This document shows, piece by piece, positions 44,541-47,473 of a stretch of 64,000 nt of DNA. Under the pieces are notes generated by a model. That model saw only the letters and a list, made by a program, of their open reading frames with translations, did no database searches and was not told where the DNA came from. The stretch is taken from the sequence record MN508616.2; one strand, 5' to 3'. Origin of the DNA: Escherichia phage ES19. The position numbers and the translations under genes were made by a program. Numbering within the stretch: the stretch's first letter is position 1; every line of letters starts with the position of its first letter.

Positions 44541-45104
44541 TTATTTACCTAGTTTACTTATTATAGCTTCTGCAGCAGCTTTTAGCTTAGATGCAGTGTT
44601 AATACGATTTTTAATTTCAGTATACGCATCGCCAAGAACATCAAGGCTATCAGAATAAACACTTACACTATTGCGTTCGCTATTTGAAATAGAACCTTTA
44701 GTTTTGCGGTCAAAATCGGTGTACACGTCTTGAAGATCGCGGGCTGCCTTCTTTGCATCATCCAATGCATCAAGAGCTTTATTCAAAGCATTAACGTATT
44801 TTTTAGTGTCGAACATATTCTTAGAAATTTTAACAGGTGCGCGTTCAGGAGTAGCTAACACAGATTTAGGAACCTGAGCGCCAGATGCCAATTTCTTAGA
44901 AATTTTGAAAAATGCTTTATTGAATTTATTTTCTTGACTCATTGTAAAAGAACTATTATCGATGTTGTACATTTCAATAGCTTTAGCTTTCCACTTAAGA
45001 AAATCGCCGCGGTCTTTTGGGTCCAATTGGAAGAATACTTTAGTAAGATCTGCTTCAGATGGTAATTTTGCTGCTTCGGTTAAAAATTCGGCATAGGTTT
45101 TCAT
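44541..45104 (-). CDS. internal protein candidate (IPIII-like) with capsid-targeting sequence
   Basis: N terminus MKTYAEFLTEA matches the T-even capsid-targeting sequence with an LxE prohead-protease site; basic, Ala/Lys-rich body. Confidence 0.6.
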   Translation of the reverse strand: MKTYAEFLTEAAKLPSEADLTKVFFQLDPKDRGDFLKWKAKAIEMYNIDNSSFTMSQENKFNKAFFKISKKLASGAQVPKSVLATPERAPVKISKNMFDTKKYVNALNKALDALDDAKKAARDLQDVYTDFDRKTKGSISNSERNSVSVYSDSLDVLGDAYTEIKNRINTASKLKAAAEAIISKLGK

Positions 45105-45194: not shown

Positions 45195-45222
45195 AAAAAG
45201 CCCCAACCTTTCGGTCGGGGCT
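45195..45222 (-). terminator. intrinsic terminator
   Basis: Minus-strand GCCCCGACC-GAAA-GGTTGGGGC followed by TTTTT, after the IP gene ending at 45230. Confidence 0.6.
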
Positions 45223-45229
45223 AAGAATG

Positions 45230-45703
45230 TCATTTGATTTGTTTAGCAGACCAAATGCGGTCTTTAATAATTTTTTGGATGTCTTCAACATACTCAAGAG
45301 AGTGAACATGTGGATTATCTTTGAAACTATAAGCACGGGCTAACTTTTGGCCTTCGGTTTTGATTACTAAAAGCTCTTTAAGGATAGCTTCATATTTAGC
45401 GATAATTCCTTTAACGATATTTTTTTCTTGTGCCGCTTTAGGATCTGCTTTAGGAGCAGGTTTACCCGAAGCCTTTGCAAAAGCAGCGCCAGTAGCAACT
45501 AAACTTTTCCAGGCCATACTAACTGCATTTCCCGTAAATCCTTCCGCTTTCATGTCGCGTGCAAACTGGAATCGTGATTCATCAGAAGCATCTTTATAGG
45601 AATATTTACCCGCGGCAATGGCAGCTTTTGCAACAGCTTGAATTTCGGTGCTAGATGCTTCATTTAACACCGCTTCATTTAAAAATTGAGTATATGATTT
45701 CAT
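45230..45703 (-). CDS. internal protein candidate with capsid-targeting sequence
   Basis: Start at MKSYTQFLNEA (157 aa); late promoter TATAAATA upstream; the first 59 codons of the tracked ORF run across the terminator and promoter. Confidence 0.55.
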   Translation of the reverse strand: MKSYTQFLNEAVLNEASSTEIQAVAKAAIAAGKYSYKDASDESRFQFARDMKAEGFTGNAVSMAWKSLVATGAAFAKASGKPAPKADPKAAQEKNIVKGIIAKYEAILKELLVIKTEGQKLARAYSFKDNPHVHSLEYVEDIQKIIKDRIWSAKQIK

Positions 45704-45751: not shown

Positions 45752-45779
45752 AAAAAGCCCCAACCTTTCGGTCGGGGCT
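45752..45779 (-). terminator. intrinsic terminator (exact repeat of 45195..45222)
   Basis: Identical hairpin plus U-run at the 3' end of the non-coding region. Confidence 0.6.
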
Positions 45780-45830
45780 AAGCCTTGCGGCAACCTTGTC
45801 GGGGTTCCACCTGCTAAGGCAAGTGTTTGT

Positions 45831-45922
45831 ACGAAACGCCGGGATTCGAACCCGGTTATTAAGTAGTTGACGCTACTCAATATTTTTAAAAGGCCATATC
45901 TCGACCATATCCGAACGTTCCG
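45831..45922 (-). ncRNA. tRNA-like element (acceptor stem plus canonical T-arm, aberrant body)
   Basis: Minus strand: 7-bp acceptor CGGAACG/CGTTTCG and T-arm CCGGG-TTCGAAT-CCCGG; no regular D or anticodon arm; lies in a 300-nt ORF-free interval. Confidence 0.3.
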
Positions 45923-46086
45923 TCAAAAACGCTACTCGGCTTACGGCAAAGATATTTCCTCGAATCGATAATTCGGTGCGCCGTTTCTGCTGTGATAGTA
46001 AAGAGCCAGAACACAGTAAAACTGTGGGAGGAAACTATACTCCAGGGAACATCAGTCCGACGACTTACCGGTAGCGACCCGGTTTC

Positions 46087-46437
46087 TTAATATTCTTTTA
46101 AAGAATCAATATATTCACGGCGTTTACGCCACAAATCAATTGCTTCATACGCGGATTCAGCATTTCGAATTAGCCGGCATTTATGTAAAGACTTATGATT
46201 TTGATATTGTGTAGATAACGGAATTGTATCTAAAAGGTCTTTACGATCAAAATATTCGTAACCATCTAAACCAAATGAACGATTTTTGAGAAATTGCCAA
46301 TGACCATATTCGTTTTCGACATAAACATAATCTGCATGCTGATAAAGCAAATTAATTACACGTTCAGAAATAACAGTATCATTATGATTAAAATAGAATG
46401 TTAAATCATGAACTACTAAATAAACATTACCTTTCAT
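46087..46437 (-). CDS. hypothetical protein
   Basis: 116-aa ORF immediately downstream of tRNA-Arg; start preceded by GTGAGGAAAAT. Confidence 0.5.
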   Translation of the reverse strand: MKGNVYLVVHDLTFYFNHNDTVISERVINLLYQHADYVYVENEYGHWQFLKNRSFGLDGYEYFDRKDLLDTIPLSTQYQNHKSLHKCRLIRNAESAYEAIDLWRKRREYIDSLKEY

Positions 46438-46455: not shown

Positions 46456-46531
46456 TGGTCGAGGCAGTAGGGATCGAACCTACGACCTAGGACTTAGAAG
46501 GTCCTTGCTCTTCCTTCTGAGCTATGCCCCG
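46456..46531 (-). tRNA. tRNA-Arg (anticodon TCT)
   Basis: Hand-folded cloverleaf: acceptor CGGGGCA/TGCCTCG, anticodon loop CTTCTAA, T-loop GGTTCGATC; CCA encoded. Confidence 0.8.
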
Positions 46532-46535
46532 TAAT

Positions 46536-46611
46536 TGGGGTGACCGATGGGAGTCGAACCCATGACTACGAGAATCACAATCTCGAGTTCTACCAACTGA
46601 ACTACGGCCAC
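46536..46611 (-). tRNA. tRNA-His (anticodon GTG)
   Basis: Acceptor GTGGCCG/CGGTCAC, anticodon stem CGAGA/TCTCG with loop TTGTGAT, T-loop GGGTTCGACTCCC, discriminator C, CCA encoded. Confidence 0.75.
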
Positions 46612-46725
46612 ATTAATACCTACTCCAACAATCAAGATGTCTTCACACGAAATTAAGAGAAGAGTGATCAGTTCAACCCCTATAATCGCGTCAAGTAGAT
46701 ATTAATGTGACAGTTGTCACAAATT

Positions 46726-46800
46726 TGGCGGACGTGATAGGATTCGAACCTATAACCAATCGCTTAACAGGCGATCGCTCTGCCATTGAGCTACACATCC
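46726..46800 (-). tRNA. tRNA-Asn (anticodon GTT)
   Basis: Acceptor GGATGTG/CACGTCC, anticodon stem ATCGC/GCGAT with loop CTGTTAA, T-loop AGGTTCGAATCCT; CCA encoded. Confidence 0.75.
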
Positions 46801-46805
46801 AAATT

Positions 46806-46891
46806 GGTGGGGAGTGGTGGAGTCGAACCACCCGAGTCGCAATGACAATGGATTTACAGTCCACACCGCTACCTCTACGGGATAACTCCCC
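46806..46891 (-). tRNA. tRNA-Tyr (anticodon GTA), long variable arm
   Basis: Acceptor GGGGAGT/ACTCCCC, anticodon loop CTGTAAA, long variable arm, T-loop GGTTCGACTCC; CCA encoded. Confidence 0.75.
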
Positions 46892-46900
46892 AAATTAATT

Positions 46901-46975
46901 TGGTGGCCCTGGGTGGAATTGAACCACCATCTGGCGATTATGAGTCGCTTGCTTGAACCTTCCAGCTACAGGGCC
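46901..46975 (-). tRNA. tRNA with CAT anticodon (Ile by analogy with T4 tRNA-Ile, otherwise Met)
   Basis: Acceptor GGCCCTG/CAGGGCC, anticodon stem AGCGA/TCGCC region with loop CTCATAA, T-loop GGTTCAATTCC; CCA encoded. Confidence 0.7.
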
Positions 46976-46976
46976 T

Positions 46977-47052
46977 TGGTGCTGATTGACGGAATCGAAC
47001 CGCCGACCTTCTCATTACAAGTGAGTTGCTCTACCTACTGAGCTAAATCAGC
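46977..47052 (-). tRNA. tRNA-Thr (anticodon TGT)
   Basis: Acceptor GCTGATT/AATCAGC, anticodon loop CTTGTAA, T-loop GGTTCGATTCC; CCA encoded. Confidence 0.8.
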
Positions 47053-47057
47053 AAAAC

Positions 47058-47147
47058 TGGCGGAGGCGATAGGATTTGAACCTATGAGTCGCCGGAGCGA
47101 CTGCCGGTTTTCAAGACCGGTGCATTAAACCACTCTGCCACGCCTCC
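47058..47147 (-). tRNA. tRNA-Ser (anticodon TGA), long variable arm
   Basis: Acceptor GGAGGCG/CGCCTCC, anticodon stem CCGGT/ACCGG with loop CTTGAAA, long variable arm, T-loop GGTTCAAATCC; CCA encoded. Confidence 0.8.
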
Positions 47148-47149
47148 AG

Positions 47150-47223
47150 TCTCCGTGGCAGGATTTGAACCTACGACATTCTGCTCCCAAAGCAGACGCT
47201 CTACCAAACTGAGCTACACGGAG
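47150..47223 (-). tRNA. tRNA-Pro (anticodon TGG)
   Basis: Acceptor CTCCGTG/CACGGAG, anticodon stem TCTGC/GCAGA with loop TTTGGGA, T-loop GGTTCAAATCC; CCA not encoded. Confidence 0.8.
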
Positions 47224-47233
47224 TAAATTAAAT

Positions 47234-47307
<74 letters not shown>

Positions 47308-47312
47308 AAATT

Positions 47313-47399
47313 TGGTGCGAGAAGTGGGACTCGAACCCACAAGGAAATCATTCCGCAGCATTTTAAGTGCTGTGCCTTTACCAATTTGGCCATTCTCGC
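47313..47399 (-). tRNA. tRNA-Leu (anticodon TAA), long variable arm
   Basis: Acceptor GCGAGAA/TTCTCGC, anticodon stem CAGCA/TGCTG with loop CTTAAAA, long variable arm, T-loop GGTTCGAGTCC; CCA encoded. Confidence 0.8.
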
Positions 47400-47400
47400 G

Positions 47401-47473
47401 CTGGGAATAAAGGACTCGAACCTTTGCATCCTGGAATCAAAATCCAGTGCCTTACCAACTTGGCTAATTCCCA
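47401..47473 (-). tRNA. tRNA-Gln (anticodon TTG)
   Basis: Acceptor TGGGAAT/ATTCCCA, anticodon stem CTGGA/TCCAG with loop TTTTGAT, T-loop GGTTCGAGTCC; abuts tRNA-Leu with a 1-nt spacer; CCA not encoded. Confidence 0.8.

What the first reader, a model, noticed from the sequence alone, without database searches (positions are those of the whole stretch)
45783..46086. ORF-free 300-nt interval with a tRNA-like minihelix, bracketed by a duplicated terminator
Between the 116-aa ORF after tRNA-Arg and an internal-protein gene there is no ORF of 60 codons or more. The minus strand carries a 7-bp acceptor-like stem (CGGAACG/CGTTTCG) stacked on a canonical T-arm (CCGGG-TTCGAAT-CCCGG), but the D and anticodon regions are aberrant. 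Exactly the same terminator hairpin is repeated at 45195..45222 and 45752..45779. This could be a stable RNA analogous to the T4 species 1 and 2 RNAs, an RNase P substrate mimic, or a decayed tRNA gene.
Basis: seen in the sequence. Interest (0 to 1): 0.6.

Follow-up and report, generated by a model that had tools for sequence, protein, structure and literature searches.

The report
Phage T4 small RNAs rnaC, rnaD
The ORF-free interval holds this phage's copies of two small stable RNAs that have been known in phage T4 for about 50 years (species 1 and 2, rnaC and rnaD); their function is still unknown, but comparison across phages shows that rnaC is a large tRNA-shaped RNA with two loops that pair with each other.

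Summary
On the minus strand, window 45975-46091 is the orthologue of T4 rnaD (species 2 RNA) and 45830-45968 is the orthologue of T4 rnaC (species 1 RNA). A conserved trailer hairpin and an intrinsic terminator (45752-45779) follow. T4 annotates both genes as misc_RNA directly after tRNA-Arg; here a 116-aa ORF lies between tRNA-Arg and rnaD.

"Decayed tRNA" is refuted by conservation and compensatory changes across about ten phage genera. The T-arm and the 3' acceptor strand are correct, but the proposed 5' partner, CGGAACG, is not supported. It lies inside another conserved hairpin. The covarying partner is the RNA's own 5' end, CGAUUCG.

rnaC folds into a 139-nt cloverleaf: an acceptor stem with two U.U mismatches, a long composite arm, a 10-bp arm and a T-arm. 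The loops UUGACG and CGUCAA are complementary, with two independent compensated changes, which suggests a kissing interaction.

The duplicated terminators do not bracket the interval. They flank the next gene, one of two paralogous cassettes. Rfam has no matching family.

Function remains unknown. My best guess is a tRNA-like accessory RNA made by the tRNA-processing enzymes, possibly a decoy.

The parts
45975..46091 (-). rnaD (species 2 RNA) orthologue, about 117 nt. It has a 5' hairpin ACCGG/CCGGU with the invariant loop GUCGCUA (46067-46083). A long rod is closed by GUCGUCG (46058-46064) pairing with CGGCG(C)AC (45976-45983). The apical hairpin is lineage-specific (CACAG/CUGUG, 46012-46026). 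The 5' end overlaps the TAA stop of the 116-aa ORF.
   Evidence: Alignment to T4 rnaD, annotated at 71053-71171. RNAalifold on 12 variants gives 25 pairs, 6 of them with double changes. Five variants with four different apical sequences fold to the same architecture. Thermodynamic support is weak, with z from -0.2 to -2.2.
45969..45974 (-). Spacer GAAUUA between rnaD and rnaC. It resembles the 4-7 nt spacers between tRNAs in these clusters.
45830..45968 (-). rnaC (species 1 RNA) orthologue, 139 nt by the T4 annotation. It forms a tRNA-like cloverleaf.
   Evidence: About 99% identical to T4 rnaC, 70908-71046. The covariance model scores 177.5 bits at 45824-45973. Single-sequence MFE is -50.2 kcal/mol, z = -4.56. 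RNAalifold on a MAFFT alignment predicts the same fold.
45961..45967 (-). rnaC acceptor stem, 5' strand CGAUUCG. It pairs with 45832-45838 to give 7 pairs, with two conserved U.U mismatches at pairs 4 and 5.
   Evidence: Pair 3 covaries without exception (G-C in 19, A-U in 10, none broken). Tegunavirus has CGGUCCG/CGGACUG, which fills pairs 4 and 5 with U-A and C-G to give 7 standard pairs, one of them G.U.
45832..45838 (-). rnaC acceptor stem, 3' strand CGUUUCG. It is followed by U and then ACA, not CCA.
   Evidence: The 3' tail is U-ACA in the T4 type, U-UCA in Tegunavirus and U-CCA in Marfavirus.
45839..45855 (-). rnaC T-arm, CCGGG-UUCGAAU-CCCGG, stacked directly on the acceptor 3' strand.
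   Evidence: 99% of cells paired, and 2 of 5 pairs carry compensatory changes (CCUGG/CCAGG, CUUGG/CCAAG).
45857..45882 (-). rnaC arm P4: a 10-bp stem UAUUGAGUAG/CUACUUAAUA with the 6-nt loop CGUCAA (45867-45872).
   Evidence: 9 of 10 pairs show compensatory changes and 95% of cells are paired.
45896..45955 (-). rnaC long composite arm. P2 is AUAUCUUUGCC (45945-45955) paired with GGUCGAGAUAU (45896-45906). It encloses hairpin P3 (45911-45939: CCG, AGU bulge, AGCGUU / AACGUU, CGG) with the loop UUGACG (45921-45926).
   Evidence: P2 has 7 of 8 and P3 has 6 of 7 pairs with compensatory changes. The 'type 2' homologues (Gelderland-, Kanagawa-, Moon- and Marfavirus) replace the sequence but keep the hairpin (AGCAU/AUGCU, CACGU/ACGUG).
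45921..45926 (-). P3 loop UUGACG, proposed to kiss the P4 loop CGUCAA (45867-45872).
   Evidence: The two loops are perfectly complementary in all 29 distinct sequences. There are two independent compensated changes: Marfavirus UUGGCG/CGCCAA and Tegunavirus UUGAUG/CAUCAA. No uncompensated change was seen. Duplex energy is -5.5 kcal/mol.
45783..45829 (-). Conserved 3' trailer with a 7-bp hairpin CACUUGC-CUUA-GCAGGUG (45808-45825).
   Evidence: It is conserved in T4. It is also kept in phages that lack rnaC (Dhakavirus C6, Mosigvirus AV114). Fold. No covariation is available.
45752..45779 (-). Intrinsic terminator of the tRNA/rnaD/rnaC transcription unit: AGCCCCGACC-GAAA-GGUUGGGGCU followed by a U run.
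   Evidence: Terminator scan. Also present in T4. Published model: transcription terminates after the species I gene (PMC2330249).
45195..45222 (-). Second, identical terminator after the 157-aa ORF (45230-45703). It belongs to a duplicated gene cassette, not to the RNA genes.
   Evidence: The two ORFs 45230-45703 and 44541-45104 both match PHROG 2280.

Best explanation
What it is (shown). The interval carries the orthologues of the phage T4 genes rnaD (species 2 RNA) and rnaC (species 1 RNA), at the 3' end of the phage tRNA transcription unit, followed by a conserved trailer hairpin and an intrinsic terminator.

Structure of rnaC (shown by covariation).
- rnaC is a 139-nt tRNA-shaped RNA.
- Its 5' end (CGAUUCG) pairs with CGUUUCG to form a 7-position acceptor stem that carries two conserved U.U mismatches. 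This stem stacks on a canonical T-arm.
- The D-arm position is occupied by a long composite arm (P2-P3).
- The anticodon-arm position is occupied by a 10-bp hairpin (P4) with a 6-nt loop.
- The P3 loop UUGACG and the P4 loop CGUCAA are complementary and change together, so they most likely form a kissing interaction that buries the 'anticodon-like' loop.

Structure of rnaD (shown, more weakly). rnaD is a 5' hairpin plus a long rod. Its ends are invariant and its tip is swapped between lineages.

How the RNAs are made (inferred from position and from established knowledge of tRNA processing).
- Both RNAs are cut out of the long tRNA-operon transcript.
- RNase P recognises the acceptor/T minihelix of rnaC and cleaves at its first acceptor base. 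That one cut creates the rnaC 5' end and frees the rnaD 3' end.
- 3' trimming removes the trailer.

What they do (speculative).
- rnaC is not a decoding tRNA. It has no 7-nt anticodon loop and no D loop, and it ends in NCA rather than CCA.
- It most likely acts as a tRNA look-alike that binds or titrates a factor recognising the acceptor/T half of tRNAs, for example a host tRNA-targeting defence or a processing enzyme. That would give a host-dependent, dispensable advantage.
For: Identity.
- T4 annotates rnaD at 71053-71171 and rnaC at 70908-71046 as small stable RNAs.
- The window aligns to them base for base, except for the central part of rnaD.
- 819 phage records carry the stretch.

rnaC structure.
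- RNAalifold on an unbiased MAFFT alignment and the single-sequence MFE (z = -4.56) give the same cloverleaf.
- Pair counts: 91.7% of cells paired, 32 of 52 pairs with changes on both sides, 0 of 500 shuffles reach the observed values, and slid controls give about 40% paired.
- Kissing loops: 100% complementary, with 2 independent compensated changes.

Processing.
- In Winkler-, Karam- and Gelderlandvirus the rnaC homologue sits between tRNA genes with 4-7 nt spacers.
- PMC2330249 states that species I and II RNAs are made from the same ~1.75-kb precursor as the eight T4 tRNAs and that transcription ends after species I.
- Acceptor-plus-T-stem molecules are accepted RNase P model substrates (PMC11143913).

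Expression. RNAC was detected by northern blot in T4, and RNAC and RNAD were classed as late RNAs (PMC9697503).

Not coding. No frame stays open across homologues.

Accessory, host-linked role.
- Natural loss of rnaC in Dhakavirus C6, and of both RNAs in Mosigvirus AV114.
- The core motif is absent from one genome each of 185,579 bacterial and archaeal species.
- A convergent SNP arose in rnaD when a T4-like phage adapted to a semi-permissive E. coli strain (PMC12685909).
Against: - No function has ever been shown; reviews call it unknown (PMC3014915, PMC9697503). The decoy idea has no direct support.
- The acceptor stem has two U.U mismatches in 27 of 29 sequences, and the tail is NCA. RNase P recognition and any CCA-dependent activity are therefore assumptions.
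- The kissing interaction rests on only two compensated events. A DNA-level inverted repeat (TTGACG...CGTCAA) bound by a dimeric protein would give the same pattern.
- The two arms differ greatly in length (about 25 bp against 10 bp), so the contact needs a sharp bend.
- The rnaD fold has weak thermodynamic support, and its closing helix is invariant, so it is uninformative.
- The exact mature ends in this phage are unknown. Here rnaD follows an ORF rather than a tRNA, so its 5' end must be made in a different way than in T4.
- Alignments A4 and A5 were fitted to the model structure and lean towards it.
Confidence: 0.85

Rival explanations
1. A decayed tRNA gene: a pseudogene left after rearrangement of the tRNA cluster, with only the T-arm and the 3' acceptor strand surviving.
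For: ARAGORN and the Rfam tRNA model do not recognise it. Recombination at T loops does occur in this region: Mosigvirus AV114 carries a chimera of a tRNA 5' part with the rnaC 3' part. rnaC may ultimately descend from a tRNA.
Against: The whole 139 nt is conserved in about 820 phage records from about ten sampled genera. 32 of 52 pairs have compensatory changes, including pairs in the non-tRNA arms. It is an abundant discrete RNA in T4 (PMC9697503).
Confidence: 0.02
2. The tRNA-like minihelix as drawn by the first reader: the internal CGGAACG pairs with CGUUUCG and stacks on the T-arm, leaving a long 5' extension. This could be an alternative conformer or a switch.
For: In T4-type sequences the stem is 7 of 7 pairs with one G.U, better than the terminal stem with its two U.U mismatches. 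83.7% of cells are paired across homologues.
Against: There are no compensatory changes. Pair 3 is unpaired in 17 of 29 sequences, and the stem is broken in Tegunavirus, where the terminal stem is complete. The same bases covary with P3 partners. The constrained fold is 13 kcal/mol worse.
Confidence: 0.06
3. A short protein-coding gene. Several GenBank records annotate 'hypothetical protein' across this stretch.
For: ORFs of 32-42 aa exist in the interval. Automatic annotations call hypothetical proteins here.
Against: No reading frame is free of stops across homologues, and length differences of 1-3 nt shift the frames. Substitutions follow base pairs, not codons. T4 curators annotate RNAs here.
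Confidence: 0.02
4. The complementary hexamers TTGACG and CGTCAA act at the DNA level, as an inverted-repeat protein-binding site, rather than as an RNA kissing loop.
For: Symmetric changes in both half-sites (Marfavirus, Tegunavirus) are also what a dimeric DNA-binding protein with altered specificity would produce.
Against: The hexamers lie exactly in the terminal loops of two covariation-supported hairpins, 48 nt apart, inside a transcribed stable RNA. No such binding protein is known. This argument is an inference, not a test.
Confidence: 0.1

Closest known systems
Phage T4 rnaC (species 1 RNA, T4s001)
   Same: Orthologous. It is about 99% identical over 139 nt, with the same position before the trailer and terminator and the same strand relative to the tRNA cluster.
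   Different: One base differs in P2 (U in T4, C here). The surrounding genes differ: two PHROG 2280 cassettes follow here, whereas e.8 follows in T4.
Phage T4 rnaD (species 2 RNA, T4s002)
   Same: Orthologous. The 5' 45 nt and the 3' 25 nt are nearly identical, and the overall architecture is the same.
   Different: The apical hairpin is replaced by an unrelated sequence (CACAG-UUUUA-CUGUG). Here rnaD follows the stop codon of a 116-aa ORF instead of tRNA-Arg, and the base after the 3' end is G rather than A (..CACCG against ..CACCA).
Transfer RNA
   Same: A 7-position acceptor stem stacked on a 5-bp T stem with the loop UUCGAAU. A four-way junction. Location inside tRNA gene clusters with tRNA-like spacers.
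   Different: About 139 nt long. No D loop. A 10-bp 'anticodon' stem with a 6-nt loop that appears to be paired. Two U.U mismatches in the acceptor stem. NCA instead of CCA. Not detected by ARAGORN or RF00005.
tRNA-like domains of other non-decoding RNAs (tmRNA tRNA-like domain; YrlA/Y RNA-like; viral tRNA-like structures)
   Same: The same logic: an acceptor/T half that engages tRNA-processing or tRNA-binding factors, joined to a non-tRNA body.
   Different: No tag ORF or tmRNA pseudoknots were found (ARAGORN). No Rfam hit to tmRNA or YrlA fell in the interval at E up to 10. The resemblance is by analogy only.

Membership tests
T4 rnaC / species 1 RNA | Sequence homology to the T4 rnaC gene over its full length | tested here: met
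   Pairwise alignment is nearly identical. The covariance model built from homologues scores 177.5 bits, E = 7e-45.
T4 rnaC / species 1 RNA | Position at the distal end of the tRNA transcription unit, after rnaD and before the terminator | tested here: met
   On the minus strand the order is tRNAs 46456-47473, ORF116, rnaD, rnaC, trailer, terminator 45752-45779.
T4 rnaC / species 1 RNA | Accumulates as a discrete, stable RNA of about 140 nt in infected cells | not testable with these tools
   Shown for T4 itself by northern blot (PMC9697503). No expression data exist for this phage.
T4 rnaD / species 2 RNA | Sequence homology to T4 rnaD, immediately upstream of rnaC | tested here: met
   The conserved 5' and 3' thirds align. 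The centre is replaced but still folds as a hairpin.
tRNA (RF00005) | Cloverleaf with a D arm and a 5-bp anticodon stem with a 7-nt loop, detectable by tRNA models | tested here: not met
   ARAGORN finds 11 tRNAs in the window and none in the interval. RF00005 gives no hit there at E up to 10. P4 is 10 bp with a 6-nt loop.
tRNA (RF00005) | Acceptor stem stacked on a T-arm with a T-loop consensus | tested here: met
   T-arm CCGGG-UUCGAAU-CCCGG is contiguous with CGUUUCG. Acceptor pair 3 covaries, G-C in 19 and A-U in 10.
tmRNA | tRNA-like domain plus a tag-peptide reading frame and pseudoknots | tested here: not met
   ARAGORN finds no tmRNA. No Rfam tmRNA hit falls in the interval.
RNase P minihelix-type substrate | About 12 bp of coaxial acceptor plus T stem with a T loop, a 5' leader and a 3' RCCA | tested here: inconclusive
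   7 + 5 stacked positions and a leader are present. Two positions are U.U mismatches and the tail is UACA, not RCCA. Cleavage was not assayed.
YrlA / Y RNA-like | Match to RF02553 | tested here: not met
   YrlA hits at E 0.065-4.6 fall on the true tRNAs only, none in 45783-46091.

The most novel reading that the evidence does not exclude
rnaC defines an uncurated RNA family, absent from Rfam, that is found in T4-like phages of Enterobacterales from about ten genera, including Marfavirus. It is a tRNA mimic in which an extended 'D arm' folds back and kisses the 'anticodon' loop, leaving only the acceptor/T half exposed. In this reading it works as a decoy or sponge for a host factor that recognises that half of tRNAs: a tRNA-targeting defence nuclease, a 3'-end-modifying toxin, or a processing enzyme. 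rnaD, with its swappable tip, would be a second host-specificity determinant. The kissing-loop architecture may itself be undescribed; I could not check the 1970s-80s literature.
Probability: 0.15. Interest if true: 0.7.

Novelty: already known. Interest (0 to 1): 0.3.

Why it matters
As a discovery it does not matter much. The genes have been known since the 1970s and are annotated in the T4 reference genome.

It still has some value for three reasons.
- Their function is one of the oldest unanswered questions about T4.
- Most GenBank records of T4-like phages leave the region blank or call spurious 'hypothetical proteins' there, and Rfam has no model for it.
- The comparative analysis gives concrete handles for experiments: a covariation-backed cloverleaf with a probable loop-loop contact, the correct acceptor pairing, natural deletion variants (rnaC lost in a Dhakavirus, both RNAs lost in a Mosigvirus), and a family range that reaches Marfavirus.

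Tried and rejected
- Rfam at permissive thresholds gave nothing in the interval except a 16-bit isrK match on the wrong strand, which I treat as chance.
- The metagenome scan with TTCGAGGA-N(98-128)-GGCGTTYCGT was too weak.
- The first gapped viral scan used a gap range one base too short. It found two chance hits in coding DNA (L028, L029).
- The genome-contig scan for the rnaC core motif found 0 hits.
- Older primary papers and the 2003 T4 genome review are not held. Full-text searches for 'species 1 RNA' found nothing specific. I therefore could not check the published RNA ends, the base modifications, or any earlier secondary-structure model. My memory that species 1 is 140 nt long with a T-Psi-C loop is unverified.
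- A weak model hit in L019 (26.5 bits) is an ordinary tRNA-Gln.
- I considered pairing between the invariant rnaD loop GUCGCUA and the UAGCG motifs of rnaC. I dropped the idea because UAGCG is equally conserved in the rnaC of Karam-, Winkler- and Tegunavirus loci that show no rnaD, and it is absent from some type-2 rnaC sequences.
- The 'internal protein' label for the neighbouring ORFs rests only on their N-termini (MKSYTQFLNEA and MKTYAEFLTEA; T4 IPI starts MKTFKEF). Pfam gives nothing and PHROG 2280 has no assigned function.

Full report
**What is there**

The window is a T4-like (Tequatrovirus) genome segment. On the minus strand ARAGORN finds eleven tRNA genes at 46456-47473: Gln, Leu, Gly, Pro, Ser, Thr, Met, Tyr, Asn, His and Arg. 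A 116-aa ORF follows at 46087-46437 (PHROG 3355, unknown function). Next comes the flagged interval.

Inside 45783-46086 the longest ORFs are 42, 34, 32 and 32 aa. The only longer one is a mechanical TTG extension of the next gene. The "ORF-free" observation therefore holds.

**Identity**

The T4 reference genome annotates two misc_RNA genes directly after tRNA-Arg: rnaD (species 2 RNA, 71053-71171) and rnaC (species 1 RNA, 70908-71046). The minus strand of the window aligns to this T4 stretch almost base for base. The only exception is the central ~55 nt of rnaD, which differ.

By that alignment:
- rnaD occupies window 45975-46091, and its first bases overlap the TAA stop of the 116-aa ORF.
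- A 6-nt spacer follows.
- rnaC occupies 45830-45968.
- A conserved 47-nt trailer fills 45783-45829.
- The intrinsic terminator lies at 45752-45779.

About 820 phage genome records carry the stretch. Only a few annotate rnaC or rnaD; most show nothing or "hypothetical protein".

The literature held here agrees on three points:
- Species I and II RNAs are cut from the same ~1.75-kb precursor as the T4 tRNAs, and transcription ends after species I. T2L, RB1 and RB3 have them too (PMC2330249).
- RNAC was detected by northern blot, and both RNAs behave as late RNAs (PMC9697503).
- Their function is unknown (PMC3014915).

Rfam 15 has no family that matches the interval, even at E up to 10.

**The tRNA-like part, and a correction to it**

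I collected homologues from these genera: Tequatro-, Gapriver-, Karam-, Winkler-, Moon-, Kanagawa-, Gelderland- and Tegunavirus, plus Marfavirus. On a plain MAFFT alignment of 19 sequences, RNAalifold predicts a cloverleaf. The minimum-free-energy fold of the window sequence alone gives the same fold (-50.2 kcal/mol, z = -4.56). Its parts are:
- The RNA's 5' end, CGAUUCG, pairs with CGUUUCG as the acceptor stem.
- A long arm consists of P2 enclosing hairpin P3.
- An A-rich linker follows.
- P4 is a 10-bp hairpin.
- One nucleotide separates P4 from the T-arm, which stacks on the acceptor 3' strand.

Pair counts on 29 distinct sequences (similar):

| Measure | Result |
|---|---|
| Cells forming a standard pair | 91.7% (about 40% when partners are slid) |
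| Pairs with changes on both sides | 32 of 52 |
| Shuffles reaching the observed values | 0 of 500 |

In the acceptor stem, pair 3 is G-C in 19 sequences and A-U in 10, and is never broken. Pairs 4 and 5 are U.U in 27 sequences but U-A and C-G in Tegunavirus.

- It shows no compensatory change.
- Its third pair is unpaired in 17 of 29 sequences.
- The stem collapses in Tegunavirus.
- Its bases covary instead within P3, where 6 of 7 pairs show double changes.
- Forcing the stem costs 13 kcal/mol.

So the T-arm and the 3' strand are right, and the 5' partner is wrong.

**A probable loop-loop contact**

The P3 loop is UUGACG and the P4 loop is CGUCAA. They are exact reverse complements in all 29 sequences.

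Two lineages changed both loops together. Marfavirus has UUGGCG/CGCCAA and Tegunavirus has UUGAUG/CAUCAA. No lineage changed only one loop.

The "type 2" homologues (Gelderland-, Kanagawa-, Moon- and Marfavirus) have an almost unrelated sequence in the long arm. They nevertheless keep a hairpin that presents the same loop.

I read this as a kissing interaction that sequesters the anticodon-like loop. Three caveats apply:
- There are only two independent events.
- A DNA-level inverted repeat would leave the same signature.
- The two arms are of very different length.

**rnaD**

Twelve variants share three features:
- an invariant 5' hairpin (ACCGG/CCGGU, loop GUCGCUA);
- an invariant closing helix, GUCGUCG paired with CGGCG(C)AC;
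- an apical hairpin with four unrelated sequences in different lineages, all folding into the same rod.

Thermodynamic support is weak, with z from -0.2 to -2.2.

A 2025 study reports the same SNP arising in rnaD in all lines of a T4-like phage adapted to the semi-permissive host ECOR34 (PMC12685909).

**How the RNAs are probably made**

In Winkler-, Karam- and Gelderlandvirus the rnaC homologue sits between tRNA genes, 4-7 nt from each neighbour. An acceptor-plus-T minihelix is a recognised RNase P substrate type (PMC11143913).

I infer that RNase P cuts at the first acceptor base of rnaC. That cut also frees the rnaD 3' end. Exonucleases then trim the trailer. This was not tested.

The 3' tail after the discriminator U is ACA in the T4 type, UCA in Tegunavirus and CCA in Marfavirus. 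Charging or CCA-dependent functions therefore cannot be assumed.

**What they probably do**

Nothing is established. These observations bear on the question:
- rnaC is conserved yet occasionally lost. Dhakavirus C6 keeps rnaD and the trailer but lacks rnaC, and Mosigvirus AV114 lacks both.
- The rnaC core motif is absent from one genome each of 185,579 bacterial and archaeal species.
- The RNAs accumulate late in infection (PMC9697503).
- rnaD carries a host-adaptation SNP (PMC12685909).

Together these fit an accessory, host-dependent role. My preferred guess is a tRNA look-alike that titrates a factor recognising the acceptor/T half of tRNAs. I give that specific idea about 15%.

**The terminators**

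The two hairpins are identical, and the 40-nt blocks containing them are 93% alike. Both lie downstream of the interval. They flank the 157-aa ORF at 45230-45703.

That ORF and the ORF at 44541-45104 are paralogues (PHROG 2280). Their N-termini resemble those of T4 internal proteins. The duplication reflects a repeated gene cassette, not a property of the RNA locus.

**Verdict**

The finding is real and correctly sensed, but already known. The interval is the rnaD-rnaC pair of T-even phages. The new content is secondary: a corrected and covariation-supported structure for rnaC, a candidate kissing loop, the family's range, and the gap in Rfam and in genome annotations.

Noticed in passing
window 46612-46725 (minus strand): A 114-nt non-tRNA spacer lies between tRNA-Asn and tRNA-His and folds into a long imperfect hairpin (-37.9 kcal/mol). 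It is 81-89% conserved in Karamvirus and in Klebsiella T4-like phages and is unannotated almost everywhere. It may be a third stable RNA of the tRNA cluster.
   Followed up: partly
L004:229-330 and L006:166-270 (Karamvirus AS6, Gelderlandvirus Melville): A further ~100-nt conserved element lies between tRNA-Gln and tRNA-His. Its ends pair (GAGUGUAAC/GUUACUC) and its 3' tail, CCGUACAAG, resembles the rnaC 3' end. It is another candidate processed RNA.
   Followed up: no
L008:651-722 (Mosigvirus AV114, OR352944.1): The annotated 'tRNA-Asn' is a chimera. The 5' part of a tRNA is fused inside the T loop to the rnaC T-arm 3' half, acceptor 3' strand and trailer (100% identical to window 45783-45852). 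The acceptor strands no longer match, and ARAGORN does not call it. This is evidence of recombination at T loops that deleted rnaD and most of rnaC.
   Followed up: partly
L007:698-880 (Dhakavirus C6, MW679410.1): rnaD is present directly after tRNA-Arg, but rnaC is missing. The conserved trailer and terminator follow rnaD. This is a natural rnaC deletion.
   Followed up: partly
window 44541-45104 and 45230-45703 (minus strand): Two paralogous ORFs (PHROG 2280, unknown function) have N-termini MKTYAEFLTEA and MKSYTQFLNEA, which resemble the start of T4 internal proteins. The upstream ORF (45230-45703) is flanked by the two near-identical terminators (its own and the one after rnaC); the downstream ORF (44541-45104) ends at a more diverged one (63%), which points to a duplicated cassette.
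   Followed up: partly
L003:626-700 (Winklervirus Virsaitis27): Between tRNA-Ile and rnaC there is a 75-nt tRNA-like sequence. It has a 7-bp acceptor stem (GGGAGUU/AGCUCCC) and an ACCA end but an unusual T loop (AUCGUUA). It is neither annotated nor called by ARAGORN.
   Followed up: no
window 45783-45829 (minus strand): The trailer between rnaC and the terminator is conserved even in phages that lack rnaC. It contains a 7-bp hairpin, CACUUGC-CUUA-GCAGGUG. Its role is unknown; it could be a processing signal or a protective hairpin.
   Followed up: no
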